IMG/VR virus record: IMGVR_UViG_3300031867_000069
Length of the DNA: 57,325 bases
DNA from: a virus
Direction: 5' to 3' (one strand)
Below the pieces are notes generated by a model, which had not been told where the DNA came from, did no database searches, and saw only the letters and a list, made by a program, of their open reading frames with translations. The position numbers and the translations under genes were made by a program. Below, in pieces: positions 30,004 through 55,000 of this stretch (positions are counted from its first letter, which is position 1; each line of letters opens with the position of its first letter).

Positions 30004-30041
30004 AAGGTGTCTGAAACATGGCACCTTATTCTTTTATTTTT
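30004..30041 (+). terminator. Rho-independent terminator
   Basis: 8-bp stem (aaggtgtc / ggcacctt), then attcttttattttt. Confidence 0.65.
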
Positions 30042-30056
30042 GAAAGGAGAATTTAC

Positions 30057-37253: not shown

Positions 37254-40088
37254 ATGAACAATATCATAAAAGATATGGATGAACATGTGCTAATGCATTA
37301 CGGAATGCCTAAACGTTCTGGACGATATCCTTGGGGAAGTGGTGATAATCCATATCAGCGTACAGGCGATTTTATGGGTAGAGTTGACGAGCTAAGAAAA
37401 CAGAATTTTACTTATACTGATGAAAAAGGAAAAGTTTGGACAGGCGATACTGCTATTGCCAAATCTATGGGTTTGTCAACAACTCAATTTAGAACCGAAT
37501 ATTCTATTGCTAAAAACGAACGTAGACTCTATCAAGTAAATACTGCTAAAGCGTTGCAGAAAGATGGACTCGGTGCTACAGAAATCGGTAGAAAAATGGG
37601 TATACCAGAATCATCAGTTAGATCCTTATTGAATGCAAAATCCGAAACAAAAATGAATCAGGCTAAAGAAACAGCTAAATTCATAAAAGAGCAGATTGAT
37701 AAAAAAGGAATGATTGATGTTGGTACTGGTGTTGAAAGAGAACTAAACATATCTAAGGAAAAACTTAATCAGGCCTTATATTTACTCGAAAGAGAAGGCT
37801 ATCCTATATATAAAGGCGGCATTCCCCAAGTAACAAACATAGGTAATCAAACAAATCAAAAGATTATTTGTAAACCTGGTACAGAACATAAAGAAATTTA
37901 TGATTTTGACAAGGTTCATGCTCTTAATGAGGATAACTATATTTCTAGAGATGACGGTAAAACTTTCGAAAAGAAATTCCATTATCCAGAAAGTATGGAT
38001 TCAAAACGTCTTATGATTAGATACAAAGAGGACGGCGGCATCGATAAAGATGGTGTTGCAGAAATTAGACCAGGTGTTGACGATCTTTCACTTGGCGAAT
38101 CTCGATATTCTCAGGTTCGTATAATGGTTGATGGTAAAAAATACATAAAAGGTATGGCTGTATATGGCGATCCTAAAGATTTTCCTAAAGGTGTTGACGT
38201 TATATTTAACACTAACAAATCAAAGTCTGTATCTAAACTAGATGTTCTTAAAGATATTAAGAGCGATCCAGATAATCCATTTGGTTCTTTAATTAAAGAC
38301 GCTACACAAGGCGGTCAATATTGGTATACGGATTCTAAGACCGGAAAGAAGAAGCTTGGACTTATTAATAAGACAAGAGAAGAAGGCGATTGGGATGATT
38401 GGAAAGATGCTCTGCCTTCACAGTTCTTAGCTAAGCAGCCTATACAAATGATTAAGAAACAATTAAAGTTAGCAGTTGCTGATAAGGAAGCAGAATATGC
38501 TGATATTATGTCTATTAATAATCCTACTATTAAGAAATATTATCTTAATAAGTTTGCGGATGAATGTGATTCGACGGCTGTACATTTAAAAGCAGCCGCA
38601 TTACCAGGACAAAAGTATCACGTTATTATTCCTAATAATACGCTTAAAGAGAATGAAGTGTATGCGCCGGGCTATGCTTCAGGCACAAAGCTTGCTTTAA
38701 TAAGATATCCACATGGTGGAACATTTGAGATTCCTATATGTACAGTAAACAATAAGAATGCATTAGGTAAAAAACTTATAGGTACAACTCCTATAGATGC
38801 TGTATGTATTAATTCTAGAGTTGCTGAAAGATTATCAGGAGCGGATTTTGATGGCGATACGGTTATGTGCATTCCAACCCATGATCGTCAAGGAAAAGTT
38901 AAGATTACTTCTACTCCTCCTTTGAAAGGTCTAGAAGGTTTTGACCCAAAGATGGCCTATCCAGAACGTCCAGGTATGCAGTATATGAAAAATCCTAAGA
39001 CTGGAAGTGATAGCACTCCAGTGCAAATGGGAATGATTTCGAATCTTATAACCGATATGACTTTACTTGGCGCTACCTCTGATGAATTGGCTGCTGCCGT
39101 ACGTCACAGTATGGTAGTTATTGATGCTGGTAAGCACAAGCTGGACTATAAGCAGAGCGAGATAGATAACAACATAGCCGCTCTAAAGAAAAAGTATCAA
39201 GTGGGTGGCGCTTCTACTTTAATGTCTAGGGCTAAAGGTGAGTATGATGTACCCAAAAGGCAGGGTAATCCCCGTGTCAATTTAAAGGGCAAAACATATT
39301 ATGACCCTACCCGTCCCGAGGGAGCCCTAGTATATAAGACGGCAGACGACGCCAAATGGATACAAACAAAAGTCAATAAACGTACTGGAGAAGTAAAAAA
39401 AGTTGAGAGGATTCGTACTCAGAAGAGTACCAATATGGCAGAGACGGATGACGCATATACCCTAGTGTCTAAATTTAACACCCCTAAGGAGAGAGCCTAT
39501 GCCGACTATGCCAATAAAATGAAATCAATGGCTAACCAGGCCCGTATAGAAGCATCTAATTCGGGCAAAATAGCCTATTCAAGATTGGCAAAAGCAGAAT
39601 ATCAAAAAGAAGTAGATTCTTTGAATGCAAAATTAAACAAAGCTTTACTTAATTCTCCTAGAGAACGTCAAGCTCAACGTATGTCTAACGCTGAAATGAA
39701 TATAAAAAAGAGAGCCTATTATGATGAAACGGGCGCAAAGATGAAAACTAAGGATATAAAGAAAGCCAGTCAGCAAGCAATATCAAAGTATCGTGATGAA
39801 GTAGGCTCTGTATCTAGAAGAAACCGTTCTATTACTATAGATGATAGAGAATGGGAAGCTATTCAAAAGGGTGCAATAAGCGAAAGCGTGCTTAATAAGA
39901 TACTGAATAATAGTGATCCTGACAAACTAAGAGAAAGAGCAACACCTAAAACTTCTAAAGGTTTAAACACTGCTAAAGTAAACAGAATCAAAGCTTTGTC
40001 TGCTTCTAATTACACATTAGAACAAATCGCTAACAAACTTGGTATTTCAACTTCAACAGTTGCTAAGTATTTGAAAGGAGGAAATTAA
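37254..40088 (+). CDS. YonO / RdRP-like two-barrel single-subunit RNA polymerase candidate with flanking HTH domains (944 aa)
   Basis: The core motifs are ALIRYPHGGTFEIP (R484), then LSGADFDGDTVMCIPTHD (D531-D535, nt 38844-38858), then GMISNLITD...AAAVRHSMVVIDAGKHKLDYK. The HTH segments are GATEIGRKMGIPESSVRSLL near the N-terminus and YTLEQIANKLGISTSTVAKYLKGG at the C-terminus. Confidence 0.6.
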   Translation: MNNIIKDMDEHVLMHYGMPKRSGRYPWGSGDNPYQRTGDFMGRVDELRKQNFTYTDEKGKVWTGDTAIAKSMGLSTTQFRTEYSIAKNERRLYQVNTAKALQKDGLGATEIGRKMGIPESSVRSLLNAKSETKMNQAKETAKFIKEQIDKKGMIDVGTGVERELNISKEKLNQALYLLEREGYPIYKGGIPQVTNIGNQTNQKIICKPGTEHKEIYDFDKVHALNEDNYISRDDGKTFEKKFHYPESMDSKRLMIRYKEDGGIDKDGVAEIRPGVDDLSLGESRYSQVRIMVDGKKYIKGMAVYGDPKDFPKGVDVIFNTNKSKSVSKLDVLKDIKSDPDNPFGSLIKDATQGGQYWYTDSKTGKKKLGLINKTREEGDWDDWKDALPSQFLAKQPIQMIKKQLKLAVADKEAEYADIMSINNPTIKKYYLNKFADECDSTAVHLKAAALPGQKYHVIIPNNTLKENEVYAPGYASGTKLALIRYPHGGTFEIPICTVNNKNALGKKLIGTTPIDAVCINSRVAERLSGADFDGDTVMCIPTHDRQGKVKITSTPPLKGLEGFDPKMAYPERPGMQYMKNPKTGSDSTPVQMGMISNLITDMTLLGATSDELAAAVRHSMVVIDAGKHKLDYKQSEIDNNIAALKKKYQVGGASTLMSRAKGEYDVPKRQGNPRVNLKGKTYYDPTRPEGALVYKTADDAKWIQTKVNKRTGEVKKVERIRTQKSTNMAETDDAYTLVSKFNTPKERAYADYANKMKSMANQARIEASNSGKIAYSRLAKAEYQKEVDSLNAKLNKALLNSPRERQAQRMSNAEMNIKKRAYYDETGAKMKTKDIKKASQQAISKYRDEVGSVSRRNRSITIDDREWEAIQKGAISESVLNKILNNSDPDKLRERATPKTSKGLNTAKVNRIKALSASNYTLEQIANKLGISTSTVAKYLKGGN

Positions 40089-40623: not shown

Positions 40624-40695
40624 CCTAAAAGTATACACAAAGCGATAAAAACATATTTGTTTGTGTGTCTAAATAGCAGAAAGGAGATAAAAAGC

Positions 40696-41037
40696 ATGAA
40701 AAAAGTTGGTAAAAAAGACGATAAAGATTCCTCTTCTAATAAAATCAGACCTGCTTTAACGCCCGAAGCCAGAGAAAATCAGATGATATCTTTGGCTGTA
40801 GACTTAGCAGAGAAGCAATTACAAGAAGGAACTGCGTCTTCTCAAGTAATAACGCATTTTCTAAAGCTGGGATCCACAAAGCAACAATTAGAAAAACAGA
40901 AACTAGTAGAAGAGAATAAGTTATTACGTGCTAAAACAGAAAATCTTCAATCAGTGGGTAGAATAGAAGAGTTATATGCGGAAGCTATTAATGCTATGAG
41001 AAATTATTCAGGTCAAGGAGATTCGGATGAATATTAG
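40696..41037 (+). CDS. Putative terminase small subunit (113 aa)
   Basis: SD AAAGGAGA lies before ATG 40696. It is the first gene of the packaging module, with a basic N-terminus and a coiled coil. Called by position only. Confidence 0.4.
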   Translation: MKKVGKKDDKDSSSNKIRPALTPEARENQMISLAVDLAEKQLQEGTASSQVITHFLKLGSTKQQLEKQKLVEENKLLRAKTENLQSVGRIEELYAEAINAMRNYSGQGDSDEY

Positions 41038-41461: not shown

Positions 41462-41770
41462 ATGGCAAAACATACTAATTACAGCAAACCAAAAAAAATC
41501 GATAAGGTAGAAGAAACAACAGTTAATGTTGAAGAAGTGCTACCGGTAGACGTTGAAACACCAGAAGTTCTTGTTGGATTTGTAAGCGGTTGCAAGAAAC
41601 TTAATGTTCGTTCGAATCCTTGGATTGATGCGGAAGTGCTAACTGTAATTGACGAGAACGATGAAGTGAGTGTTATTCGCTACGAAAGTGAACCAGCGGA
41701 TTTCTATCAAGTAAGAACAAAGAATGATGTCGAAGGTTATTGCATGAAAAAGTACATAACACTTAGTTAA
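41462..41770 (+). CDS. SH3-like domain protein (102 aa)
   Basis: The pattern LNVRSNPWIDAEVLTVIDENDEVSVI...FYQVRTKNDVEGYCMKKYI is typical of bacterial SH3 domains. Confidence 0.45.
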   Translation: MAKHTNYSKPKKIDKVEETTVNVEEVLPVDVETPEVLVGFVSGCKKLNVRSNPWIDAEVLTVIDENDEVSVIRYESEPADFYQVRTKNDVEGYCMKKYITLS

Positions 41771-41772
41771 GG

Positions 41773-42123
41773 ATGATGATCATGGATAGTGTATTAACAT
41801 CTATTAAAAAGCTGCTCGGTATTACCGAAGAGTATAAGCAGTTCGATCAGGATTTGATTATACATATTAACTCGGTGTTGATGGGATTGACACAAATCGG
41901 AGTTGGTCCTTCCGAAGGCATGAGAATCCAAGATGATTCTACTACTTGGAATGATTTATTATCAAATATTTCTAATCTTGAAGCTGTTAAAACATATGTG
42001 TATTTGAAAGTCAAAATGGTTTTTGATCCGCCTACAAGCTCTTCGGTGATGGATGCCATGAATAGATCAATAAACGAGTATGAATGGCGTTTAAACATAA
42101 ATGCCGATTCTCAAAAGGAGTGA
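41773..42123 (+). CDS. Hypothetical protein, possibly head-tail-connector-like (116 aa)
   Basis: Three in-frame ATGs (41773, 41776, 41782). Only weak resemblance to the N-terminus of gp6-like connectors. Confidence 0.45.
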   Translation: MMIMDSVLTSIKKLLGITEEYKQFDQDLIIHINSVLMGLTQIGVGPSEGMRIQDDSTTWNDLLSNISNLEAVKTYVYLKVKMVFDPPTSSSVMDAMNRSINEYEWRLNINADSQKE

Positions 42124-42128
42124 TTGCA

Positions 42129-42359
42129 ATGGACGTCACAACTATTGTAGTTGCTGTTTTATCTTTGGCTGGAACATTTATAGGAACATTAGGCGGCATA
42201 TTGACAAGTACAAAGTTAACAAGCTATAGAATTGAACAATTAGAAAAAAAAGTAGAAAAGCATAATTCAGTGGTTGAACGTACTACTGTTTTAGAAAAAG
42301 AGTTCGAAATAGTTCGGCACGATATTGATGAATTAAAAAATGATATGACTCGAAAATAA
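42129..42359 (+). CDS. Small membrane protein with coiled-coil tail (76 aa)
   Basis: SD AAAAGGAG lies before ATG 42129. TM segment IVVAVLSLAGTFIGTLGGIL, then RIEQLEKKVEKHN... Confidence 0.55.
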   Translation: MDVTTIVVAVLSLAGTFIGTLGGILTSTKLTSYRIEQLEKKVEKHNSVVERTTVLEKEFEIVRHDIDELKNDMTRK

Positions 42360-42374
42360 AGGACGGTGAGATTA

Positions 42375-43046
42375 ATGAATGATGAACTTTATCATCACGG
42401 TATCAAAGGTATGAAATGGGGCGTTCGTAGATATCAGAATAAAGACGGTAGTTTGACTCCTAGAGGAAAAAAGAAATATGGAACTAGAGAGAATTTTGAA
42501 AGGCACTTGGCCTCTAAAAAATTTAAAAAGAGTTCTCATAAACTTTCTGGTATAGAGAAGAAAAAGCCTATAAAGTCGGCTAAGGATATGACCGATGATG
42601 AATTAAAAAGTAGGATCAATCGTCTTCAAATGGAAAGGCAATATCTTGATTTAAATAAACAGATTTCTTCTTTAACTCCTAAAAAAGTGTCGAAAGGAGA
42701 ACAGTTCATCAAAGCAATCGGTAAAGACGTTATAGCTCCAGTTGCCAAAAATATTGGCAAACAATATTTGGAAAAAGCATTAAAGAAAAATCTAGGATTG
42801 GATATAAAAGATACTTTGGAAGGTCTAGAAAAAGAAGCAAAGAAATTAAGACTAAAAAAAGAAATAAATGATCTAAAGAATCCTAAAAAAGACTATAAAG
42901 ATGAATTTGTTAAGAATTGGAACAAACATAAAAGATGGAAAAAAGCAGTTGAAGAATATGAAAATGAAGCTGCTGATGATTTTGTAAATAGTAATGCTGA
43001 TTCCGGAAAGCAATATGTAGAAACAGCTTTGGCTATACGTAAATAG
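42375..43046 (+). CDS. Lys-rich protein with N-terminal LYHHGIKGMKWGVRR motif (223 aa)
   Basis: Shares a 53-bp exact DNA segment with 44839..45414. It sits immediately upstream of terL. Confidence 0.65.
   Translation: MNDELYHHGIKGMKWGVRRYQNKDGSLTPRGKKKYGTRENFERHLASKKFKKSSHKLSGIEKKKPIKSAKDMTDDELKSRINRLQMERQYLDLNKQISSLTPKKVSKGEQFIKAIGKDVIAPVAKNIGKQYLEKALKKNLGLDIKDTLEGLEKEAKKLRLKKEINDLKNPKKDYKDEFVKNWNKHKRWKKAVEEYENEAADDFVNSNADSGKQYVETALAIRK
42379..42431 (+). repeat. 53-bp exact direct repeat, copy 1
   Basis: atgatgaactttatcatcacggtatcaaaggtatgaaatggggcgttcgtaga, identical to 44867-44919. Confidence 0.95.
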
Positions 43047-43060
43047 CGAGGAGGATTTTT

Positions 43061-44824
43061 ATGGCATTATCGAATGTTGCCACCCCTAAATATTACGGTA
43101 AATTTCGAGATGCTGTAATTAGAGGTGAAATACCTGTATGCGAAGAAATTTCAATGGAAATGAATAGAGTAGATGCTCTTATTGATAATCCAGGAGTTTG
43201 GTATGACAATCAAGCTATAGACGGATTTATTAGATATTGTGAGAATGAACTAACTCTAACTGATGGCGAAGATTTGCATTTACTTGACACATTTAAACTT
43301 TGGGCTGAACAAATCTTTGGCTGGTATTATTTTGTAGATAGAAGTATTTATGTCCCTTCAGAAGATGGTCATGGCGGGCACTATGAAACTCGAACTATTA
43401 AAAAACGTTTAATTACAAAATTTTATTTAATAGTAGCTAGAGGTGCGGCCAAGTCTATGTTCGCATCATGTATTCAAAATTATTTTCTAAATGTCGATCC
43501 AGCGACAACGCATCAAGTGACAACAGCGCCAACAATGGCGCAGGCAGAAGAAGTTATGTCACCAATACGAACTGCCATCACTAGATCTAGAGGACCACTT
43601 TATAAATTTTTAACAGAAGGTTCCTTACAGAATACCACAGGTTCCAAGGCTAATCGTGTTAAATTGGCTAGTACTAAAAAAGGAATTCAGAATTTTCTGA
43701 CAGGTTCTTTATTAGAAGTAAGGCCTATGTCTATCGATAAACTACAAGGTTTACGAGTTAAGGTAGCGACAGTTGATGAATGGTTGTCTGGTGATATAAG
43801 AGAAGACGTCATAGGTGCGTTGGAACAAGGTGCTGCTAAAGAACAAGGCGGTGGTAAGAATGACGACTATCTAATATTAGCTATTAGTTCCGAAGGTACT
43901 GTTCGTAACGGAAGTGGCGATACAATCAAAATGGAATTAATGAGTATACTTAAAGGTGAATACAATGCTCCTCATACCGCTATTTGGTGGTACAAACTTG
44001 ATTCAATAGATGAAGTATCAGATCCATCCAAATGGTTGAAAGCCAATCCAAACCTTGGAAAAACAGTTTCCTACGAAACATATCAGCTTGACGTTGAAAG
44101 AGCAGAAAAGAATCCAGCTGCAAGAAACGATATCCTGGCAAAACGTTTTGGTTTACCTATGGAAGGTTATACATACTATTTTACATATGAAGAAACACTA
44201 CCACATAGAAGAAGAGACTATTGGGGTATGCCTTGTGCATTAGGAGGAGATTTATCTCAAGGTGACGACTTTTGTGCGTTTACATTTTTGTTTCCATTAT
44301 CGAGTGGGGCTTTTGGAGTAAAAACTCGAAATTATATAACTGAACTTACATTATCGAAATTACCAGGTGCCATGCGAATGAAATATGAAGAATTCATCAA
44401 AGAAGGAAGTTTAATAATCATGCCTGGCACTGTTCTAGATATGATGGAAGTTTATGAAGATCTAGATAATCATATTTCTAGAGTTGAGTATGATGTTCGT
44501 TGCTTTGGATTCGATCCATATAATGCGAGAGAGTTTGTCGAAAGATGGGAACGAGAAAACGGACCATTCGGCATAGAAAAAGTAATCCAGGGTTCCAAAA
44601 CAGAATCTGTTCCGCTAGGAGAGTTAAAGAAACTTGCTGAAGAAAGAATGCTTTTGTTTGATGAAGAACTGATGACATTTGCGATGGGTAACTGTATCAC
44701 ATTAGAGGATACTAATGGTAATCGTAAATTATATAAGAAAAGATATGAACAAAAAATCGATGCAGTTGCGGCTATGATGGATGCATATGTTGCATTTAAG
44801 CTTAACCGAGAAGCTTTCGAATAA
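43061..44824 (+). CDS. terL: Terminase large subunit (587 aa)
   Basis: Walker A-like LIVARGAAKS, Walker B KVATVDEW, and nuclease C-terminus QKIDAVAAMMDAYVAF. Terminase_1/COG4626-like. Confidence 0.9.
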   Translation: MALSNVATPKYYGKFRDAVIRGEIPVCEEISMEMNRVDALIDNPGVWYDNQAIDGFIRYCENELTLTDGEDLHLLDTFKLWAEQIFGWYYFVDRSIYVPSEDGHGGHYETRTIKKRLITKFYLIVARGAAKSMFASCIQNYFLNVDPATTHQVTTAPTMAQAEEVMSPIRTAITRSRGPLYKFLTEGSLQNTTGSKANRVKLASTKKGIQNFLTGSLLEVRPMSIDKLQGLRVKVATVDEWLSGDIREDVIGALEQGAAKEQGGGKNDDYLILAISSEGTVRNGSGDTIKMELMSILKGEYNAPHTAIWWYKLDSIDEVSDPSKWLKANPNLGKTVSYETYQLDVERAEKNPAARNDILAKRFGLPMEGYTYYFTYEETLPHRRRDYWGMPCALGGDLSQGDDFCAFTFLFPLSSGAFGVKTRNYITELTLSKLPGAMRMKYEEFIKEGSLIIMPGTVLDMMEVYEDLDNHISRVEYDVRCFGFDPYNAREFVERWERENGPFGIEKVIQGSKTESVPLGELKKLAEERMLLFDEELMTFAMGNCITLEDTNGNRKLYKKRYEQKIDAVAAMMDAYVAFKLNREAFE

Positions 44825-44838
44825 TAAGGAGGATAATA

Positions 44839-45414
44839 ATGACTAATTACATTATAAAAACAAAGGATGATGAACTTTATCATCACGGTATCAAAGGTAT
44901 GAAATGGGGCGTTCGTAGACAACAGAAAAAACAGGCAAAGAAAGATTTTGCAAACATGCCAAGTAAGAAGAAAGGCCCAGTTGATATTGGTAATTCCGCA
45001 GCACGAAGTTATTTTAAGTCGCAAAATCTTATAAGAAAGGCTGATAAAACTAGAAGTTTTGCCAAGTATAGGAAATTAAATAAAAAAGCCCATCGTTTGC
45101 AAAAAATAGCAGATAGAAAAACAGGTCAATTAAACGAGGCGCAAGTTAAAGCCGGTCGCTATAGAATCGCTAGAAATAGAAACTATAGAAGAACAGCTTT
45201 ATCCGCTGTTATAGGAACAGCAGCTGGAGTAGCTGCTATGGGACTTGGTGCAGCAGCATTGGGCGTTCCTATTGCTGGTGCGGCATACATTACAAGTAGA
45301 TATGCTAGTGGTGGTAGACGATATCGAAGAGAACAGATTAGTTATAAGAAGTTTGCAACAAAAGAAAGCAAGCCGATAAAGAAAAATAAATCTAAATCTA
45401 AATCTAGTAAATAA
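44839..45414 (+). CDS. Basic protein with N-terminal LYHHGIKGMKWGVRR motif and C-terminal Gly/Ala-rich hydrophobic segment (191 aa)
   Basis: SD AAGGAGG. Hydrophobic segment ALSAVIGTAAGVAAMGLGAAALGVPIAGAAYI. It lies between terL and the portal gene. Confidence 0.65.
   Translation: MTNYIIKTKDDELYHHGIKGMKWGVRRQQKKQAKKDFANMPSKKKGPVDIGNSAARSYFKSQNLIRKADKTRSFAKYRKLNKKAHRLQKIADRKTGQLNEAQVKAGRYRIARNRNYRRTALSAVIGTAAGVAAMGLGAAALGVPIAGAAYITSRYASGGRRYRREQISYKKFATKESKPIKKNKSKSKSSK
44867..44919 (+). repeat. 53-bp exact direct repeat, copy 2
   Basis: Identical to 42379-42431. Confidence 0.95.
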
Positions 45415-45434: not shown

Positions 45435-46679
45435 ATGGAAATAAACATAGGTACAAGAGTTAAACGCGCCTGGAATGCGTTTTTAAACAGAAGTCCTACT
45501 ACTAGAGCTGATATAGGTTCTAGTTATTCATACAGACCGGATCGTCCACGGTTGGCAAGAGGCAATGATCGTTCGATTATAACGGCTGTCTATAATAGAT
45601 TAGCGATCGATATATCATCAATCGAAATAAAACATTGTAAATTGGATGACGAGGGTAGATATTTATCCGACGTTGATTCTGGGCTTAATGAGTGTTTAAA
45701 CACTTCTGCCAATATAGATCAAACAGGTCGATCATTTATACAAGACGTGGTAATGTCTATGTTCGATGAAGGTTGTGTGGCAATAGTGCCAGTAGATACA
45801 AACGCCGATCCTAAAGAAACTAATTCCTATGATATATTATCTTTGAGAACTGGCAAAATAGTGGATTGGTATCCATCTCATGTGAAGGTTAAATTATATA
45901 ATGATAGGACGGGTAACAAAGAAGAATTAATATTTGCGAAGTCTAATGTTGCGATTATTGAAAATCCTTTTTATTCCGTAATGAATGAGCCGAATTCGAC
46001 TTTACAGCGTTTGATTAGAAAATTAAGTTTATTGGATGTGACAGATGAAAACACGGCTTCTAGTAAATTAGATTTGATAATTCAGTTGCCTTACGTTATA
46101 AAAACGGATGCTCGAAGAAAGCAAGCTGAAGATAGGCGAAAAGATATTGAAAAACAATTATCCGGATCTAAATATGGCATAGCTTACACTGACGGTACCG
46201 AAAAAATCACTCAACTTAATAGAAGTGTAGAAAATAATTTGTTGTCGCAAATAGAATCATTGACTAATCAATTATTTAGTCAGCTTGGAATAACACAATC
46301 TGTTTTGGATGGAACTGCCGACGAACAAACAATGCTTAACTATAATAATAGGACAATTGAACCGATAATATCAGCCATTATCGATGAAATGAAACGAAAA
46401 TTTCTAACAAAAACGGCCAGATCACAAGGTCAATCAATAGTGGCTTTTAGAGATCCTTTCAAACTTGTTCCTTTAAATAACATAGCTGATATGGCCGATA
46501 AATTCACTAGAAATGAGATTCTAACTTCAAACGAATTTAGGCAAATAATCGGTATGAAACCATCAGATGATCCAAAAGCGGATGAACTGGTAAATAGTAA
46601 CATTAGTCAACCTAGTGAAGGTGAAAACTCCGATGAGTATTCAGAATTTTCAGATAATGAAGAAACATATCCGGATTAA
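45435..46679 (+). CDS. Portal protein (414 aa)
   Basis: Called on size and position between terL and the protease-capsid gene. The C-terminus is acidic. Confidence 0.6.
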   Translation: MEINIGTRVKRAWNAFLNRSPTTRADIGSSYSYRPDRPRLARGNDRSIITAVYNRLAIDISSIEIKHCKLDDEGRYLSDVDSGLNECLNTSANIDQTGRSFIQDVVMSMFDEGCVAIVPVDTNADPKETNSYDILSLRTGKIVDWYPSHVKVKLYNDRTGNKEELIFAKSNVAIIENPFYSVMNEPNSTLQRLIRKLSLLDVTDENTASSKLDLIIQLPYVIKTDARRKQAEDRRKDIEKQLSGSKYGIAYTDGTEKITQLNRSVENNLLSQIESLTNQLFSQLGITQSVLDGTADEQTMLNYNNRTIEPIISAIIDEMKRKFLTKTARSQGQSIVAFRDPFKLVPLNNIADMADKFTRNEILTSNEFRQIIGMKPSDDPKADELVNSNISQPSEGENSDEYSEFSDNEETYPD

Positions 46680-46717: not shown

Positions 46718-48538
46718 ATGGATTATGATTTTAGTGGTTGGGCCACCAGAAATGATCTATTATGTGGAGATGGACGTACCATTCGAAAGAATGCGTTTAT
46801 TGAAAATGATGGCGAAACCGTTCCATTAATATATAATCACGATCATTCAAACCCTGATGCTGTTTTGGGTCACGCTCTTTTACAAAACAGAGATGAAGGC
46901 GTTTATGCCTATTGCAAATTCAATGATACAGAATCAGGGCAGCATGCCAAAGAACTTGTCAAAAATGGCGACGTTCGTTCTTTATCTATTTATGCTAATA
47001 AGCTTAAACAGATTGGACGCGACGTTATTCATGGCAGTATTAAAGAATTAAGTTTAGTTCTTGCAGGCGCTAATCCGGGAGCTTACATTGATTTTGTAAT
47101 GGCTCACGGCGACGACGAAGAAGACGGATTATATGCGAACTATGACGAAAGTGCATTAGTGCTTTATCATTCAGATAGTTCTGCTAAAAAGGAGGAAAAA
47201 GAAATGAAGGAAGAGAAAAATAAGACTCCCGAGTCTAACGATAAGGGCGATGAAAAAACAGTTCAAGACGTTCTTGACACTTTCAATGACGAACAGACTA
47301 AGGTTCTATATGCATTGATCGGTCAAGCACTACAGGATGCTGGTGTAGAACCAGAAGATTTAGAAGATGATGAAGAAGGAGACGATGAAGATATGAAACA
47401 TAACGTATTTGATAACGATGTGCAGACATCACAGAATGTTCTAACCCATGCCGATCAGGAAGCTATTATTGAACTTGCCAAATCTAAGAATGTTGGTAGT
47501 TTCCAGTCAGCTCTAGAACTTTATGCTGAAGATCATCTTGCGCATGGTATTGATAGTATTGAAACTCTATTCCCAGAATACGAACTAACAAATCCTGGTG
47601 CTCCAGAGATGCTCACTAGAGACCAGACATGGGTTGAATCTGTTCTAAGCAAAGCTCATAAAAGTCCTATCAGTAGAATCAGAACAAGACATGCTGATGT
47701 TAGAGCAGAAGATATCAGAGCTATGGGTTATAAAAAGACTAAGGAAAAGCAGCTTATTGCTAATCTAAAGCTGTTGAACAGAACTACAGATCCTCAGACA
47801 GTTTATGTTAAGGATAAACTAGAAAGAGATGATATTATTGATATCACTGATTTCGATGTAGTAGAGTATCAGCGCAAAATTATGCGTATGGCATTGAACG
47901 AAGAAATTGCTAAAGCTATTCTTATTGGTGATGGCAGAGAAGAAGGCGACGAAGGCAAGATTCAAGAAACTCATATTCGTTCTATTTGGAAAGATGAAGA
48001 TCTATACACAATTCGTGCTGATGTTGATGTTGCAGCAGCAAAGAAGGAACTTCAGGGCTCTAATACATCCGCTAATTTTGGCGAAAATTATGTTTACGCA
48101 GAAGCTATCATTACTGCAGCTCTTTATGCTCGTGAAAAGTATAAGGGTAGTGGTAGTCTAGATTTCTATTGCACACCACATCTTCTAAATGTTATGTTGT
48201 TAGCTAGAGACCTAAATGGCCGCAGAATTTATGATTCAAAGTCTGATCTTGCAGCGGCATTAAATGTAGCTGATATTAAGACAGTTGAACAGTTCGAAGG
48301 TAAGACACGTACAACTTCTGATGGTAAAACTAAGAAGCTTCTAGGTCTATTTGTAAACATGAGTGACTATCAGATCGGTTCCACAAAGGGTGGCGAAATC
48401 ACAAACTTTGAAGATTTCGATATTGACTTCAATAACTATAAGTATCTAATGGAAACTAGACTATCTGGTGCATTAACAAAAGCATTCTCAGCTATTGCTC
48501 TTGAAGAACCAGTTGCGGAAGCTGAAGTATCAGGCTGA
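46718..48538 (+). CDS. Prohead protease - acidic scaffold-like linker - HK97-fold major capsid protein fusion (606 aa)
   Basis: The N-terminus resembles S78/U35 proteases (VPLIYNHDHSNPDAVLGH...SLSIYAN...IKELSLVLAGANPGAYI). A Glu/Asp/Lys-rich linker spans about residues 150-225. The C-terminal ~380 aa are capsid-like. Confidence 0.75.
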   Translation: MDYDFSGWATRNDLLCGDGRTIRKNAFIENDGETVPLIYNHDHSNPDAVLGHALLQNRDEGVYAYCKFNDTESGQHAKELVKNGDVRSLSIYANKLKQIGRDVIHGSIKELSLVLAGANPGAYIDFVMAHGDDEEDGLYANYDESALVLYHSDSSAKKEEKEMKEEKNKTPESNDKGDEKTVQDVLDTFNDEQTKVLYALIGQALQDAGVEPEDLEDDEEGDDEDMKHNVFDNDVQTSQNVLTHADQEAIIELAKSKNVGSFQSALELYAEDHLAHGIDSIETLFPEYELTNPGAPEMLTRDQTWVESVLSKAHKSPISRIRTRHADVRAEDIRAMGYKKTKEKQLIANLKLLNRTTDPQTVYVKDKLERDDIIDITDFDVVEYQRKIMRMALNEEIAKAILIGDGREEGDEGKIQETHIRSIWKDEDLYTIRADVDVAAAKKELQGSNTSANFGENYVYAEAIITAALYAREKYKGSGSLDFYCTPHLLNVMLLARDLNGRRIYDSKSDLAAALNVADIKTVEQFEGKTRTTSDGKTKKLLGLFVNMSDYQIGSTKGGEITNFEDFDIDFNNYKYLMETRLSGALTKAFSAIALEEPVAEAEVSG

Positions 48539-50397: not shown

Positions 50398-50949
50398 ATG
50401 CTTCGAATTACAATACCTGCGACTGAACTATGGGACGAAAGAAAAGAAGAATTTGTTTCCATAAAAGAAAAGACGTTGGAATTGGAGCATTCCCTCGTCT
50501 CTCTTTCAAAATGGGAATCAAAATGGTGTAAACCTTTCTTAACAGATGCGAAGAAAACTGATGAAGAAACTATAGATTACATAAGATGTATGACTATTAC
50601 ACCTAATGTTGATCCAGAAATATATTATGCGTTGACCAAAGAAAACGTTGAACAAATAAATAAGTATATAGAATCCCCAATGACCGCAACATTTTTTTCA
50701 AAAGATAAAGCTAGAGGCGGCAGGGGAATGAGCAGAGAGATAATAACTTCCGAACTTATATATTATTGGATGATTTCTTTTAACATCCCATTTGAATGCC
50801 AGAAATGGCATATAAACAGACTCATTACATTAATCAAGGTTTGTAGTATAAAGAATGAACCCCCTAAGAAGATGAGTAAAAAATCGCTAATGAGTCGTAA
50901 CGCAGCTTTAAACGCTGCTCGAAGAAAGCAATTTAACACGAAAGGATGA
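50398..50949 (+). CDS. Gp15-like tail-module protein / second chaperone (183 aa)
   Basis: LEHSLVSLSKWESKWCKPFL...EETIDYIRCMT is a pattern I recall from Bacillota siphovirus Gp15-type proteins. Confidence 0.45.
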   Translation: MLRITIPATELWDERKEEFVSIKEKTLELEHSLVSLSKWESKWCKPFLTDAKKTDEETIDYIRCMTITPNVDPEIYYALTKENVEQINKYIESPMTATFFSKDKARGGRGMSREIITSELIYYWMISFNIPFECQKWHINRLITLIKVCSIKNEPPKKMSKKSLMSRNAALNAARRKQFNTKG

Positions 50950-51659
50950 TGCATATGGCTAAACTTTATATTATTTGTGGTCATGGCGCCGGCGATCCTG
51001 GTGCATGCGCTAATGGTTACAGTGAAGCAGAACGAGTTAGAGCTCTTGGTAAAAAAATCAAAGAGCTTGGTGGTTCAAATGTTGTTTTAATGGATACAAG
51101 CCGAAATTGGTATGAAGATAATGGCATCTCTTCTTATAAATTTCCTAAAGGCGCTGTTGTTTGTGAACTGCATCTTGACAGTGCTTCTGCTTCTGCCAAA
51201 GGCGGACATGTTATTGTCAAAGAAGGTCTAAAGGCCGATAACTATGACAGAAATATTGCCAAATTTATTACAGGCATGTTTCCTGGGCGTTCGGCATCAA
51301 TTGCGTATAGAAACGATTTAGCAAATCCTAATCGCGCAGCATTTAGAGGCGTGAACTATCGTCTTGTAGAATGCTGCTTTATAAGCAATGCCGATGACAT
51401 TGAAAAATTTAATAAAAACATTAGCAAAATCGCAAAAGGATTTATTGAAGCGGTTGGTCTTAAAGCATCAACAGCTAAGACGTCAACAACTTCAAAGAAA
51501 TCCGATACCAAAAAGAAAACAGCGAAAAAATCTATCGATGTCATTGCCAAAGAAGTAATCAATGGTAAATGGGGAAATGGCGATGCACGTAAGAAGAAAC
51601 TAAAAGCCGCTGGATATGATTATGCTTCAGTTCAGAAGAGAGTTAATGAGCTTCTTTAA
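50946..51659 (+). CDS. N-acetylmuramoyl-L-alanine amidase (Amidase_3) with C-terminal CW_7-type cell-wall-binding repeat: endolysin (237 aa)
   Basis: Contains LYIICGHGAGDPGA, ELHLDS and VECCFISNADD. The C-terminus is VINGKWGNGDARKKKLKAAGYDYASVQKRVNELL. Confidence 0.8.
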   Translation: MMHMAKLYIICGHGAGDPGACANGYSEAERVRALGKKIKELGGSNVVLMDTSRNWYEDNGISSYKFPKGAVVCELHLDSASASAKGGHVIVKEGLKADNYDRNIAKFITGMFPGRSASIAYRNDLANPNRAAFRGVNYRLVECCFISNADDIEKFNKNISKIAKGFIEAVGLKASTAKTSTTSKKSDTKKKTAKKSIDVIAKEVINGKWGNGDARKKKLKAAGYDYASVQKRVNELL

Positions 51660-51673
51660 AAGAGGTATTTAAA

Positions 51674-52051
51674 ATGATTAGTTTCAGACAAAAGGGAGAT
51701 TTCTCTAAATTAACAAGATTTTTGGAAAGAGCAAAAGAGGTTACACACCTTGGCGTTCTCGACAAGTATGGTAAAGAGGGAGTGGCAGCCCTTTCGTCTG
51801 CAACGCCTCATGATACCGGAAAAACTGCTGAATCATGGTATTACGAAATAGAGAATAAAAATGGCTCAGCGACCATTTCATTTTGCAATTCAAATATTCA
51901 AAATGGAGTTAATATAGCAATAATATTGCAATATGGACATGCCACTAAAGGCGGAGGATGGGTTCAGGGAAAAGATTACATCAACCCTGCAATCCGTCCT
52001 ATTTTTGATAAAATCGCAGAAGATGCTTGGAAGGAGGTCTCTAAATTATGA
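51674..52051 (+). CDS. HK97 gp10-family tail-component protein (125 aa)
   Basis: Contains ...ATPHDTGKTAESW...ILQYGH. ATGA overlap with the TMP start. Confidence 0.5.
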   Translation: MISFRQKGDFSKLTRFLERAKEVTHLGVLDKYGKEGVAALSSATPHDTGKTAESWYYEIENKNGSATISFCNSNIQNGVNIAIILQYGHATKGGGWVQGKDYINPAIRPIFDKIAEDAWKEVSKL

Positions 52052-55000
52052 GCAAAACAATAGACGAAAGAGTTGTTGAAATGCGATTCGACAATAAACA
52101 ATTTGAATCAAATGTTAATCAAACGATGTCGACTCTAGATAAATTTAAACAAAAGTTGAATCTGTCTGGAGCATCCAAAGGGCTCGAAGAAGTTGGTCGT
52201 AGTGCAAAGAACGTTGATGTTTCTTCTATTAGCTCTGGTTTAGACTCCGTTAAAGCCAAATTTTCAGCATTACAAGTTATGGGCGTTACCGCCTTAGCTA
52301 ATATAACTAATTCGGCAGTAAATGCTGGTAAAAGACTTGTATCGGCTTTTACCATCGATCCTGTTAAATCTGGCTTCGAAGAATATGAAACTCAGATAAA
52401 TTCTGTCCAAACCATTTTGGCCAATACCCAAAAAGAAGGAACAAAAATAGGCGATGTAAATAAAGCTCTCGATGAGTTGAATCTATATGCTGATAAAACT
52501 ATCTATAATTTTACTGAAATGACTAGAAACATAGGTACATTTACAGCTGCCGGGGTTAAGTTGAAAACATCAGTATCATCAATACAAGGTATAGCTAACC
52601 TTGCCGCGGTATCAGGTTCGAACGCTCAGCAAGCTTCTACTGCAATGTATCAGCTTTCTCAGGCTCTTGCTGCCGGTAAAGTTCAGCTTATGGACTGGAA
52701 ATCAGTAGAAAATGCTGGTATGGGCGGTCAAGTTTTTCAAGATGCTTTAAAGAAAACCGCTAAAGAACATGGAGTAGCAGTAGATGAGATCATAAAGAAA
52801 AGTGGATCTTTTAGAGAAAGTTTGCAAAAAGGCTGGATAACATCAAAAATACTTACCGAAACTCTTGGCAAAATGACAAAATCCGGTGCTGCCGAATACT
52901 TGGCAAAATTAACCGGAGTAACTCAAAAAGAAATTACAGCTGCTCAAAAAGCGGTAGAAACCAATAAAGATGGATCTGCTTCTTACGACAAGTTAGCTGA
53001 AAAAATGGCTAAATCCGGAAAGATAACTAAAAAGGAAGCTCTAGAAACTTTAAAAATGGCCGATACTGCTGAAGACGCAGCTACCAAAGTTAAGACTTTT
53101 TCACAGTTAATGGACACCTTAAAGGAAGCTGCTCAATCCGGTTGGTCACAAACTTGGAGAATATTAGTAGGCGACTTTGAAGAAGCAAAAGATTTATTTA
53201 CTCCTCTTAATGATTTCTTTAGTGGAATTATTAATAACATATCCAATGCTAGAAATGCAATGCTTAAAAGCGCTTTAGGTAAAAGTTTTAAAAAACTAGG
53301 TGAAGAAATTACAGCTATAACGAAGCATATAAAGAAAACCGCGGATGGCGTTAAGGAAGCTTCTAAAAGTTTAGAAAAATATGGTGAGATTGTAAACCAA
53401 ATAATTAGAGGCGACTGGGGTAACGGACAAGAAAGATTTGATAAGCTTACAAAGGCCGGTTATGATTGGGCTCATGCGCAGAATTTGGTAAATGAGAAAT
53501 TAGGTGATTCTACTCGTTATGAAACCAAATATGCAGAAGCTAAGAATAAATCGTCAAAGGTGCAAGGAGATTCCGCAAAGTCACAATCAAAAAATTTGGA
53601 AGCTCTTACTAAAATGTCTGATGCTGAATTGAAGCATATTGGTCTTAATGATAAGGAAATAAAATCTCTTAGACAATTAAAAAAAGAAGCTGATAAAGTT
53701 GGAATGTCAGTTTCTAATTTTAGTGCTAACATAGACAATATCAATGGTAGATGGCTTATATTTGACTCTTTTAAGACAATAGGTAAAAGTCTCGTTAAAG
53801 TGTTGCATTCAGTGAAAGATGCATGGGACGAAGTATTTCATGGAACTACCGATAACAATAAAATTGCTAATCAAAGAGCAAAAAGTTTGTATAATCTTAT
53901 AGCTGCTTTCCATAAGTTATCGATGAAACTAAAAGTTAACGATGAGACGGCCGATAAGATAAAGCGTACATTTAAAGGTTTATTTGCTATCATAAAACTA
54001 ATCACATCGATAACTGGTGGCACTTTTAAGACTGTTTTTACAGTAGCTCAAAATGTATTGGGAGCATTTAATCTTGATATTTTGGATGTTACAGCTTCTG
54101 TTGGTGATGTCCTTGTTAAATTTAGCGATTGGGTTTCGCAAAATAGTCTATTAACAAAAGCTATTAAGTTTTTAACCCCTTATATTACAATTGCCGTAAA
54201 AGCTGTTAAAGACTGGATAAATGCTATTATTGAATCCGGTGTAGCTCAAAAAGTATTTGATGGTTTTGTTAGTTTTTTAAAATCGGCATTCAGTAGTATA
54301 AAAGGGTGGATAATAGCAATTAAAGACTCCGAAATTGCACAAAACATTATTTCTGGTTTGGTCAACGGACTTAAAACCGGAGCTAGTTCAGCATGGGATG
54401 CAATCGTTTGGTTAGGCACTACTTTGCTTGAAAAGATAAAAGCCATTCTAGGTATTCATTCTCCATCTACCGAATTCTTTGAAATTGGTGGAAATATTAT
54501 TTCAGGTTTATTTAATGGGTTGAAAAATGGAGCATCATGGATTTACGATTTCATAACTGATCTCGGCTCAAAAATAATAAACATAGTCAAAAATTTAGAT
54601 ATCGGAACCGTTATAGCTGGCATATTAGCTGGTGGTATGTTTGTTGGTATTAAAAAATCTTTTGATTTTATAGAACTTATTTCCGAACCATTGCATGGAT
54701 TGAATAAAATATTTGATTCCGTTGCCGGAGTAATAAAAGCATCACAAAAAGGTATTGCTAAGTCATTAAAAGGTTTAGCCAAAACTTTTAAAGCATTTGC
54801 GTTTAAAATGCGTATGGATGCTATAAAAGATTTAGTGATATCAGTAACAATTTTAATAGCAGCTTTGATTGTTTTAGCGCATCAAGATACTGATAAACTG
54901 TGGGATGCAGTAGGTGTACTAGGCGCAGTCGTTGGCATGTTAGCCGCTTTGGTAGTCATCACTGAAGTATGTACTAAAAGCTCAACTAAAATAGATGCAG

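What the first reader, a model, noticed from the sequence alone, without database searches (positions are those of the whole stretch)
42375..44919. Two divergent proteins flanking terL share an N-terminal LYHHGIKGMKWGVRR tag held at 53 bp of perfect DNA identity
ORFs 42375-43046 and 44839-45414 are otherwise dissimilar. One is Lys-rich and coiled-coil-like. The other is basic with a Gly/Ala-rich hydrophobic C-terminal segment.

Both begin ..(D)DELYHHGIKGMKWGVRR, encoded by an exact 53-bp repeat (42379-42431 = 44867-44919) that brackets the terminase gene. Perfect nucleotide identity beside diverged remainders implies recent gene conversion or selection at the nucleic-acid level.

Their position between terS/terL and the portal gene, and their composition, resemble internal or ejection proteins. 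The shared N-terminal peptide could be a capsid-targeting or prohead-protease-recognition signal, analogous to the T4 internal-protein targeting sequence.

Recombination between the repeats would excise terL, so their maintenance is not neutral.
Basis: partly seen in the sequence, partly recalled or inferred. Interest (0 to 1): 0.7.

Follow-up and report, generated by a model that had tools for sequence, protein, structure and literature searches.

The report
Shared N-terminal tag on phage head-region proteins
Two unrelated small proteins on either side of a phage's DNA-packaging gene begin with the same roughly 20-residue peptide, a lineage-wide tag that most likely directs proteins, including the phage's own RNA polymerase, into the virus particle, though that role has not been tested experimentally.

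Summary
An exact 53-bp direct repeat (42379-42431 = 44867-44919) encodes (N/D)DELYHHGIKGMKWGVRR at the N-termini of two otherwise unrelated basic proteins that flank terL.

The peptide is Pfam DUF7211, which has no known function and which I could not find in any paper. In public phage genomes it occurs only in the 1706 / FP_oengus / actinophage BI-DJ-AM-AU-CC supercluster, at about 4 copies per genome and up to 9. Nearly all copies are N-terminal. They sit on the gene just upstream of terL and on a variable gene array between terL and portal.

The tagged proteins belong to at least 27 unrelated families. These include proteins with a transmembrane-like segment, a GNAT acetyltransferase, 2H phosphoesterases and a papain-fold toxin domain. 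A second flavour of the tag heads the lineage's YonO-like RNA polymerase, including the window's. Both flavours occur in front of the same ORF A-type module at the same locus. In Lactococcus phage 1706 both tagged proteins (ORF7 and the polymerase ORF75) are annotated by the depositors as structural proteins.

Best reading: a portable signal for incorporation into the virion (confidence 0.5).

The perfect DNA identity comes from sporadic gene conversion. Three related genomes each carry their own internally identical pair, but most relatives have diverged pairs. No nucleic-acid function is indicated.

The parts
42379..42431 (+). Copy 1 of the exact 53-bp repeat. It encodes (N)DELYHHGIKGMKWGVRR, residues 2-19 of ORF A.
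   Evidence: Pfam PF23847 DUF7211, E 4.9e-11, 42.3 bits against a gathering threshold of 27
44867..44919 (+). Copy 2 of the exact 53-bp repeat. It encodes (D)DELYHHGIKGMKWGVRR, residues 10-27 of ORF B.
   Evidence: Pfam PF23847, E 1.1e-11, 44.3 bits
42375..43046 (+). ORF A, 223 aa. Layout: tag, then YQNKDGSLTPRGKKKY, a basic linker, a conserved helix and a coiled-coil tail. It is the core tagged gene found immediately upstream of terL in nearly all relatives.
   Evidence: >= 7,625 homologues covering about residues 1-165. Position conserved in nearly all of 94 related loci (the window included) and in divergent contigs. AF2: tag disordered, remainder long helices.
42585..42653 (+). Conserved helix of ORF A, DMTDDELKSRINRLQMERQYLDL (residues 71-93).
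   Evidence: pLDDT above 90. Near-invariant columns in alignment A1. Matches 1706 ORF7 residues 80-102 (hhalign 92%, E 6e-7). The same helix follows polymerase-type tags in P0353, P0354, P0356 and P0436.
43061..44824 (+). Large terminase subunit, bracketed by the two tagged genes.
   Evidence: PF20441 E 1.2e-36 and PF03354
44839..45414 (+). ORF B, 191 aa. Layout: tag, basic helices, a Gly/Ala-rich hydrophobic segment and a basic tail. It is a rare accessory tagged gene in the variable slot between terL and portal.
   Evidence: Only about 10 full-length homologues. Alignment A4. AF2: tag residues 1-24 have pLDDT below 50.
45202..45303 (+). Transmembrane-like, small-residue-rich segment of ORF B (residues about 122-155).
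   Evidence: Kyte-Doolittle 19-residue mean of 1.82. Similar segments occur in 30 of 151 tagged proteins from relatives.
45435..46679 (+). Portal protein, the downstream boundary of the tagged-gene slot.
   Evidence: PF04860 E 1.3e-18
46718..48538 (+). Prohead protease fused to the major capsid protein, with an acidic linker (residues 141-235, D+E 33%, pI 4.05). I infer that it is a candidate docking partner for the basic tagged proteins.
   Evidence: PF04586; TIGR01543; composition. Homologues are annotated as capsid-protease fusions.
37254..40088 (+). YonO-like single-subunit RNA polymerase, 944 aa, containing DFDGD. It is the third tagged protein in the window.
   Evidence: phrog_4291 E 0; described in bioRxiv 10.1101/842583
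37278..37358 (+). Polymerase-flavour tag DEHVLMHYGMPKRSGRYPWGSGDNPYQ (residues 9-35 of the RNA polymerase).
   Evidence: Invariant L-x-HYG...SGRY.WGSG in 10 lineage members. hhalign against the DUF7211 tag alignment: 95.4%, E 1.7e-8. HMM scan of the window: E 1.5e-20.
41773..42123 (+). Phage_connect_2-like protein, homologue of 1706 gp06. It is a conserved neighbour of the tagged genes and is listed for context only.
   Evidence: phrog_4247 'virion structural protein' E 7e-48; PF24829 on orthologues

Best explanation
The shared peptide is one copy of a lineage-wide, portable N-terminal tag, Pfam DUF7211, with the core (D/E)(D/E)-phi-L-x-H-(Y/H)-G-(V/I)-K-G-(M/Q)-K-W-G-V-R-(R/K). I propose that it is a signal for incorporation into the virion. 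It would act as a short, intrinsically disordered peptide that docks newly made proteins onto a conserved part of the assembling head. Candidate docking sites are the portal or the interior of the protease-capsid fusion protein. Tagged proteins would then be enclosed in the particle and delivered to the next host along with the DNA.

The window has three tagged proteins:
- ORF A is the conserved helical core member, always found just upstream of terL.
- ORF B is a rare accessory member with a membrane-active-looking segment.
- The YonO-like RNA polymerase carries a second flavour of the tag.

Shown here:
- The tag's sequence family and its restriction to this lineage.
- Its N-terminal position and its modular attachment to unrelated proteins.
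- Its fixed genomic neighbourhood.
- The equivalence of the two flavours.
- The predicted disorder of the tag.

Taken from database annotation: the two tagged proteins of phage 1706 are virion components.

Inferred only: docking to the procapsid, any proteolytic removal of the tag, and ejection into the host.

The perfect 53-bp identity is a separate matter. It is the footprint of recent gene conversion between the two tag-coding segments. Conversion recurs sporadically in this clade and is confined to the only stretch the two genes share. It is not evidence of a DNA or RNA element.
For: (1) Family and distribution.
- Both tags score above the DUF7211 threshold.
- A tblastn search with the tag finds 238 phage records and 922 sites.
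- The host taxa match those found with terL DNA (250 records) and with the polymerase N-terminus (251 records): Arthrobacter 95, Gordonia 55 and Streptomyces 54 in all three, plus Lactococcus, Rhodococcus, Curtobacterium, Microbacterium and Faecalibacterium in smaller numbers that differ somewhat between the searches.

(2) Position within the protein.
- 169 of 176 tags start within 30 residues of the first in-frame ATG.
- Internal copies mark the start of a second module in fusion proteins. Examples are 1706 ORF7 and Secretariat gp15, each with two tags, and 2H-phosphoesterase-tag fusions.

(3) Genomic position.
- Nearly every one of 94 related loci (the window included) has a tagged gene immediately upstream of terL.
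- When the terL-portal gap exceeds about 450 nt, it is usually filled by 1-3 tagged genes that start 9-95 nt after terL.
- Only one tag lay elsewhere within +-6 kb.
- ReqiPepy6 has 7 tagged genes in a row and Arthrobacter phage Qui has 9.

(4) Diversity of tagged proteins.
- There are at least 27 unrelated post-tag families among 151 proteins.
- 30 of 151 have a transmembrane-like segment.
- Domains found: GNAT, 2H phosphoesterase, and papain-fold toxin 1 (PF15644, 32.9 bits against a threshold of 24.1, in the ORF B slot of L063).

(5) Polymerase link.
- The polymerase N-terminus matches the tag profile (hhalign 95.4%, E 1.7e-8).
- Non-polymerase proteins carrying polymerase-type tags followed by the ORF A helix sit upstream of terL.

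(6) Virion association.
- GenBank EU081845 annotates 1706 orf7 and orf75 (the polymerase) as 'structural protein'.
- The ReqiPepy6 record repeats this for the polymerase.
- The first module of ORF7 is the ORF A orthologue.

(7) Structure.
- AF2 leaves the tag at low confidence with no regular structure (pLDDT 34-57), while downstream helices are confident.

(8) Gene conversion.
- The window, L106 and L010 each have their own internally identical tag pair.
- Full codon identity also occurs independently in L038 and L083/84.
Against: - No experiment shows that the tag is needed for, or sufficient for, packaging.
- The virion evidence is a depositor's annotation of one phage. The paper behind it was not available to read.
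- 1706 also has untagged 'structural' proteins in its replication module (orf62, orf71). That proteome may therefore include contaminants or proteins packaged by other routes.
- The docking partner is unknown, and no complex could be modelled with these tools.
- The transmembrane-like segments, and the lysis genes next to this region in the actinophages, fit a membrane role as well.
- ORF A occupies the position usually held by a small terminase subunit, and no small terminase has been identified in this lineage.
- The tag has no sequence similarity to any known capsid-targeting peptide.
Confidence: 0.5

Rival explanations
1. The tag is a docking motif for the packaging machinery (TerL or portal). 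On this view the tagged proteins are assembly or packaging accessory factors rather than cargo. ORF A in particular would act as the missing small terminase or as a head-completion factor.
For: - ORF A-type genes are always immediately upstream of terL.
- No terS gene is recognised in the lineage.
- ORF A is an elongated helical protein that probably oligomerises.
- terL is the most conserved gene in the lineage, matching the extreme conservation of the tag.
Against: - The ORF A orthologue in 1706 (ORF7) is annotated as a structural protein. From general knowledge, terminase subunits are not virion components.
- No helix-turn-helix or terminase-small family hit was found.
- The same tag sits on enzymes, toxin domains, membrane-type proteins and the RNA polymerase, none of which has an obvious packaging role.
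- Orthologues of ORF A carry an N-terminal 2H phosphoesterase.
Confidence: 0.15
2. The tag targets proteins to the cell membrane or envelope of the infected cell. The tagged proteins would then serve lysis timing, superinfection exclusion or membrane-anchored assembly, and would not enter the virion.
For: - About 20% of tagged proteins have a single small-residue-rich hydrophobic segment, including ORF B and 6 of the 7 genes in the ReqiPepy6 array.
- Several are annotated 'membrane protein'.
- Lysis genes lie just upstream of this region in the actinophages.
Against: - The tag itself is hydrophilic and Gly-rich, with no signal-peptide-like hydrophobic core.
- About 80% of tagged proteins lack any hydrophobic segment, ORF A included.
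- A related tag heads a 944-aa RNA polymerase.
- 1706 ORF7 and ORF75 are annotated as structural proteins.
Confidence: 0.12
3. The tag is mainly a recognition or cleavage site for the prohead (S78) protease or a host protease. It would mark module boundaries in polyprotein-like fusions, with targeting achieved by other parts of the proteins.
For: - Internal tags lie exactly at module junctions in fusion proteins.
- The lineage has an unusual protease-capsid fusion.
- The T4 targeting peptide is also a cleavage site (general knowledge).
Against: - 96% of tags are already at the N-terminus, where cleavage would release only a few residues.
- An 18-residue invariant core is much longer than typical protease sites.
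- This reading does not explain the restriction to genes next to terL and portal.
- It is compatible with the main explanation and may be one component of it.
Confidence: 0.1
4. The 53-bp identity reflects selection on the nucleic acid. Candidates are a packaging or recombination site, a regulatory RNA, or a boundary sequence kept to allow exchange of gene cassettes.
For: - The identity is perfect and ends abruptly at both sides.
- Tag-coding DNA at the 5' end of each cassette would favour cassette gain and loss, and the terL-portal slot is indeed variable.
- A 32-bp intergenic boundary repeat has been described elsewhere in cluster AU genomes.
Against: - Most relatives have diverged pairs: median within-genome nt identity 70%, and only about 5% of pairs reach 90% or more.
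- The sequence differs between close relatives while the peptide is kept.
- Folding energies equal those of shuffled sequence (z -0.32, +0.43, -0.79).
- The two copies sit at different distances from their start codons.
- Promoter and terminator scans are at background levels.
Confidence: 0.03

Closest known systems
Pfam PF23847 (DUF7211)
   Same: Both window tags match the 25-position model above its curated threshold, as do the tags in all relatives tested.
   Different: The family is only a sequence entry with no assigned function, and I found no paper that mentions it. The polymerase-flavour variant is not detected by it. The synteny, the modular use and the link to virion proteins are worked out here.
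T4 capsid-targeting sequence of the internal proteins (IPI-III, Alt) [general knowledge]
   Same: A short N-terminal peptide shared by otherwise unrelated, mostly small and basic proteins that end up inside the head and are injected. It is portable in principle.
   Different: There is no sequence similarity. The T4 peptide is about 10 residues, binds the scaffolding core and is removed by the gp21 protease at a defined site. Here there is no separate scaffold, the protease is fused to the capsid protein, and neither cleavage nor packaging has been shown.
MuF / SPP1 gp7-domain polymorphic toxins and the P1 Dar proteins [general knowledge]
   Same: Phage head-associated carriers with variable effector or toxin domains, encoded next to the portal gene. 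Papain-fold toxin, GNAT and phosphoesterase domains occur behind the tag here.
   Different: No Phage_Mu_F domain was detected in any tagged protein. The carrier here is a ~20-residue peptide rather than a folded domain of about 100-300 residues.
Encapsulin cargo-loading peptides [general knowledge]
   Same: Short disordered peptides that dock diverse cargo onto the interior of an HK97-fold shell.
   Different: Encapsulin peptides are usually C-terminal and have a different consensus. The shell is not a virus: it has no portal and holds no DNA.
Virion-packaged phage RNA polymerases (N4 vRNAP, crAss-like phages) [general knowledge]
   Same: A phage polymerase carried in the particle. The 1706 homologue of the window's polymerase is annotated as structural.
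   Different: This is a different polymerase family (YonO-like, two-barrel) of about 900-1,000 aa. To my knowledge, no shared targeting peptide linking such a polymerase to other virion proteins has been reported.

Membership tests
Pfam DUF7211 (PF23847) | Match to the family HMM above the gathering score of 27 bits | tested here: met
   ORF A 42.3 bits, E 4.9e-11. ORF B 44.3 bits, E 1.1e-11.
Pfam DUF7211 (PF23847) | The polymerase N-terminus belongs to the same family | tested here: inconclusive
   No Pfam hit on the polymerase N-terminus, and my DUF7211-type HMM misses it in the window. The profile-profile match covers only the first half of the tag (95.4%, E 1.7e-8). The two flavours are interchangeable at the same position.
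T4-type capsid-targeting sequence | Short peptide at the extreme N-terminus of otherwise unrelated proteins | tested here: met
   169 of 176 tags lie within 30 residues of the start. At least 27 unrelated post-tag families.
T4-type capsid-targeting sequence | The tagged proteins are found in virions | tested here: inconclusive
   Only database annotation is available: 1706 orf7 and orf75 are labelled 'structural protein'. The source paper is not held.
T4-type capsid-targeting sequence | The peptide alone is sufficient to load a foreign protein into proheads and is removed by the prohead protease | not testable with these tools
   Needs reporter fusions and N-terminal mapping of virion proteins.
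MuF / SPP1 gp7 head-protein carriers of polymorphic toxins | Presence of a Phage_Mu_F domain | tested here: not met
   No such hit in ORF A, ORF B or 29 tagged proteins from relatives.
MuF / SPP1 gp7 head-protein carriers of polymorphic toxins | Conserved N-terminal carrier with variable C-terminal toxin or enzyme domains, encoded beside the portal gene | tested here: met
   PF15644 papain-fold toxin, GNAT and 2H phosphoesterase domains occur behind or beside the tag, within the terL-portal array.
Small terminase subunit (candidate role for ORF A) | Match to a terminase-small family, or an N-terminal DNA-binding fold | tested here: not met
   Pfam, PHROGs and NCBIfam give no terminase-small hit. 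AF2 shows no helix-turn-helix and the N-terminus is disordered.
Small terminase subunit (candidate role for ORF A) | Gene immediately upstream of terL | tested here: met
1706 / FP_oengus / actinophage BI-DJ-AM-AU-CC supercluster (Koert et al., bioRxiv 10.1101/842583) | Shared head module (HNH, connector-like protein, TerL, portal, protease-capsid fusion) together with a YonO-like polymerase carrying HTH domains | tested here: met

The most novel reading that the evidence does not exclude
A single portable ~20-residue peptide, in two interchangeable flavours, is the general address label by which a large lineage of HK97-like siphoviruses loads proteins into the capsid for co-injection. The lineage is abundant in the human gut and in soil Actinobacteria. 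On this reading the cargo includes the phage's own YonO-like RNA polymerase, toxin and enzyme effectors, and membrane-active proteins. The slot between terL and portal would be an evolving cargo manifest whose cassettes are shuffled through the tag-coding DNA.
Probability: 0.4. Interest if true: 0.8.

Novelty: new variant of a known kind. Interest (0 to 1): 0.68.

Why it matters
If the tag is a virion-loading signal, several things follow.
- It would be the first such signal defined for this very large phage lineage. ORF A alone has at least 7,625 protein clusters in public data.
- It would explain, by a single rule, the function of hundreds of 'hypothetical' genes in the SEA-PHAGES actinophage clusters and in gut viromes.
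- It would predict that these phages inject their own RNA polymerase.
- It would give a simple handle for packaging foreign proteins into phage particles.

The hypothesis can be tested directly in easily grown hosts such as Lactococcus, Gordonia and Arthrobacter.

The gene-conversion result is a clean small example of concerted evolution confined to a functional peptide-coding patch. It also explains why metagenomic contigs can break at this point.

Tried and rejected
- Literature: no hit for DUF7211 and no relevant hit for the peptide. The cluster AU/AM papers and the supercluster paper do not mention the tag. The 1706 and ReqiPepy6 papers are not held.
- Structure: AF2 models of ORF A and ORF B are non-globular helices. 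Foldseek against BFVD gave nothing for ORF B (best E 0.25) and only sequence homologues for ORF A. I did not run the PDB search because the models are poor.
- NCBIfam and PHROGs gave no functional names for ORF A or ORF B.
- RNA structure in the repeat was rejected because z-scores are near 0.
- The promoter and terminator scan was at background levels.
- More tag copies in the window: none apart from the polymerase variant.
- Resemblance to the KxYKxGKxW signal-peptide motif: I considered this from memory and rejected it because the spacing does not fit and there is no hydrophobic core.
- The SH3_3 protein at 41462-41770 as the tag receptor: set aside because the actinophage members lack it.
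- A 45-aa tag query to the homologue search returned only proteins under 80 aa, so it said nothing about domain architectures.


Full report
**1. The observation**

An exact 53-nt direct repeat lies at 42379-42431 and 44867-44919. The flanking 60-120 nt are 28-33% identical, which is random for this composition.
- Copy 1 encodes residues 2-19 of ORF A (42375-43046, 223 aa).
- Copy 2 encodes residues 10-27 of ORF B (44839-45414, 191 aa).
- The two genes bracket terL (43061-44824). ORF B is followed by the portal gene (45435-46679) and then a prohead-protease/major-capsid fusion (46718-48538).
- After the tag the two proteins are unrelated (BLASTP E >= 4.9).
- ORF A is Lys-rich (20% K, pI 9.85) and helical.
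- ORF B is very basic (pI 11.0) and has a Gly/Ala-rich hydrophobic segment.

**2. What the peptide is**

Both N-termini match Pfam PF23847 (DUF7211), a 25-position model of unknown function (42.3 and 44.3 bits against a threshold of 27). I found no paper that mentions this family or the peptide.

The window belongs to the supercluster described by Koert et al. (bioRxiv 10.1101/842583). That group contains Lactococcus phage 1706, Faecalibacterium phage FP_oengus and the actinophage clusters BI, DJ, AM, AU, AW, CC and EL.

A tblastn search with the tag finds 238 phage records and 922 sites, about 3.9 per genome. The host taxa match those found with terL DNA (250 records) and with the N-terminus of the lineage's RNA polymerase (251 records). 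The tag is therefore a signature of this head module and polymerase lineage.

**3. Anatomy across relatives**

I collected 80 IMG/VR loci with TerL 81-89% identical to the window's, plus GenBank and ENA relatives. I scanned them with an 18-residue HMM built from the tags.

Position in the genome:
- Nearly every locus has a tagged gene immediately upstream of terL.
- When the terL-portal gap exceeds about 450 nt, it is usually filled by one to three tagged genes that start 9-95 nt after terL.
- Only one tag was found elsewhere within +-6 kb.
- The same synteny (connector-like gene, tagged gene, TerL, optional tagged genes, portal, protease-capsid) holds in contigs whose ORF A is only 43-45% identical.

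Actinophages expand the array:
- ReqiPepy6 has a tag on gp013 and on all seven genes gp015-gp021 between terL and portal.
- Arthrobacter phage Qui has nine tagged genes.

Position in the protein:
- 169 of 176 tags start within 30 residues of the first in-frame ATG.
- The few internal copies mark the start of a second module in fusion proteins.
  - 1706 ORF7 has one tag at its N-terminus and another near residue 180.
  - Gordonia Secretariat gp15 reads tag-GNAT-tag-papain-like domain.
  - The gene upstream of terL in Gordonia and Rhodococcus phages is a 2H phosphoesterase followed by a tag and an ORF A-like region.

**4. What carries the tag**

- Post-tag regions fall into at least 27 unrelated families among 151 distinct proteins.
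- Mean K+R content is 20%.
- 30 of 151 have one small-residue-rich hydrophobic segment like that of ORF B.
- Recognisable domains are GNAT acetyltransferase, 2H phosphoesterase and 'papain fold toxin 1 / glutamine deamidase' (PF15644).
- PF15644 scores above threshold (32.9 against 24.1 bits) in L063, in exactly the ORF B slot of a phage whose TerL is 82% identical. It also appears in a BFVD entry from a gut siphovirus.
- ORF A belongs to a very large family, with at least 7,625 clusters and homology over residues 1-165. Its conserved helix is DMTDDELKSRINRLQMERQYLDL.
- ORF B has only about ten full-length homologues.

ORF A is therefore the core member and ORF B an accessory one.

**5. The RNA polymerase carries a second flavour of the tag**

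The 944-aa ORF at 37254-40088 is the lineage's YonO-like polymerase (phrog_4291, DFDGD). Its N-terminus is DEHVLMHYGMPKRSGRYPWGSGDNPYQ.

- This N-terminus is conserved in ten members from Firmicutes and Actinobacteria phages. The consensus is EDDxLxHYG(T/I)xRxSGRYPWGSGDNPYQ.
- A profile-profile comparison with the DUF7211 tags gives 95.4% probability and E 1.7e-8 over the acidic-L-x-HYG half. The second half differs by a short insertion before the WG.
- An exhaustive search with the first 40 residues finds 974 representative proteins.
- Among those hits are non-polymerase proteins of 350-600 aa (P0353, P0354, P0356, P0436). Each has two polymerase-type tags, the second followed by the ORF A-type helix.
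- P0354 and P0436 sit immediately upstream of TerL. In L111 the gene after terL carries a DUF7211-type tag.

The two flavours are therefore interchangeable at the same protein and genome position. The window contains exactly three tagged proteins.

**6. Evidence bearing on function**

- The original GenBank record of phage 1706 (EU081845) labels orf7 and orf75 as 'structural protein'. Orf75 is the polymerase. The ReqiPepy6 record repeats this for its polymerase.
- The first module of ORF7 is the orthologue of ORF A: it has the tag, and at the same spacing the conserved helix (hhalign 92%, E 6e-7).
- AF2 leaves the tag at low confidence with no regular structure in both window proteins (pLDDT 34-57), while downstream helices are confident. 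This is what one expects of a short linear motif that folds on a partner.
- The protease-capsid fusion has a strongly acidic linker (33% D+E, pI 4.05). That makes it a plausible counterpart for the basic tagged proteins, but this is inference only.

**7. Proposed mechanism**

The tag is a portable signal for incorporation into the virion. It would dock proteins to a conserved element of the assembling head so that they are enclosed and later delivered with the DNA.

This is the only role I can find that covers everything that carries the tag:
- a conserved helical core protein;
- small basic proteins with membrane-type segments;
- enzymes and toxin domains;
- an RNA polymerase.

It also fits the fixed location of the tagged genes beside terL and portal. 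Docking, cleavage and ejection remain untested. I put this explanation at 0.5.

Rival explanations:
- A terminase- or portal-binding assembly factor, with ORF A as the missing small terminase (0.15). The structural annotation of ORF7 and the diversity of tagged proteins weaken this.
- Membrane targeting in the infected cell (0.12). The hydrophilic tag, the 80% of tagged proteins without hydrophobic segments, and the polymerase weaken this.
- A protease recognition site at module boundaries (0.1). This is compatible with the main reading.
- A nucleic-acid element (0.03).

**8. The DNA identity**

- In the window all 15 comparable codons are the same. Given a 40% same-codon rate between genomes, P is about 1e-6.
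- L010 (ORF A 71% identical) has two tags 1 nt apart from each other. They differ from the window's at 10-11 of 53 positions, and both read GVKGQKWG.
- L106 (94% identical) has an ORF A tag and a partial ORF B tag that are identical over the 33 nt available. The ORF A tag differs from the window's at 6 of 53 positions. The contig ends inside the repeat.

That is concerted evolution in three related lineages.

It is not general. Across all loci the median within-genome identity of tag pairs is 70%. Only the window, L010-12, L038 and L083/84 show full codon identity. The repeat folds no better than shuffled sequence.

The identity is therefore a sporadic by-product of gene conversion over the only homologous patch. 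It is not a selected DNA or RNA feature. The direct repeats do flank terL, so a crossover between them would delete it. Since most relatives do not keep the identity, no special maintenance needs explaining.

**9. Novelty**

The sequence family is catalogued but uncharacterised. I have not found the following described anywhere:
- the lineage-wide synteny of tagged genes;
- the modular use of the tag;
- the polymerase flavour;
- the link to virion annotation.

In kind, the tag resembles the T4 capsid-targeting sequence, MuF-type toxin carriers, the P1 Dar proteins and encapsulin loading peptides. It shares no sequence or domain with any of them.

Noticed in passing
window 37254-40088: A YonO-like single-subunit RNA polymerase (DFDGD motif, C-terminal sigma-r4-like HTH). 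Its homologue in phage 1706 is annotated as a virion structural protein, which suggests the polymerase is injected.
   Followed up: partly
window 30018-30932: A 304-aa phage protein with bactofilin (PF04519, E 1.8e-11) and YdcK beta-solenoid repeat (PF18836, E 7.6e-21) matches. A polymer-forming cytoskeletal fold is unusual in a phage early or middle region.
   Followed up: no
window 42084-42359: A 91-aa protein with an N-terminal transmembrane helix and a C-terminal coiled coil (phrog_1863, unknown function), directly upstream of ORF A. It could be holin-like or an assembly factor.
   Followed up: no
window 40657-41037: A 126-aa protein (phrog_4259, homologue of 1706 gp04) upstream of the HNH endonuclease. 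It is conserved across the lineage and has no assigned function. It is a candidate for the unidentified small terminase.
   Followed up: no
window 41462-41770: A small SH3_3-domain protein inside the head module of the gut members. It is absent from the actinophage members.
   Followed up: partly
window 50946-51659: An Amidase_3 + CW_7 endolysin-type protein encoded among the tail-assembly genes, just before the tape-measure gene. In the relative L010 the tape-measure protein also carries CW_7.
   Followed up: no
window 1-1576 and 52050-57325: The window is broken inside the tape-measure gene. One reading frame is open from about 52050 to the 3' end (1,760 codons), and the 5' end is open for 524 codons. 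This fits a circularly permuted, near-complete 57-kb genome. The minus-strand ORFs at 55119-56696 are probably spurious.
   Followed up: partly
L106 (ENA ERZ1741638 NODE_1270), 3' end: A metagenomic contig from a close relative ends inside the second copy of the tag repeat. This may be because the repeat breaks short-read assemblies of this phage group.
   Followed up: partly
L094 4995-6548 (Gordonia phage Secretariat gp15) and L063 3974-4876: Tagged proteins carrying a polymorphic-toxin-type papain-fold / glutamine deamidase domain (PF15644). In Secretariat it is combined with a GNAT domain and a second tag. They are possible injected effectors.
   Followed up: partly
L013 10681-12276, L006 1394-2956, L094 1119-2819: In the actinophage members the gene upstream of terL has a LigT-like 2H phosphoesterase domain N-terminal to the tag. 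From general knowledge, the phage anti-CBASS enzyme Acb1 has this fold, so it could be an anti-defence enzyme.
   Followed up: no
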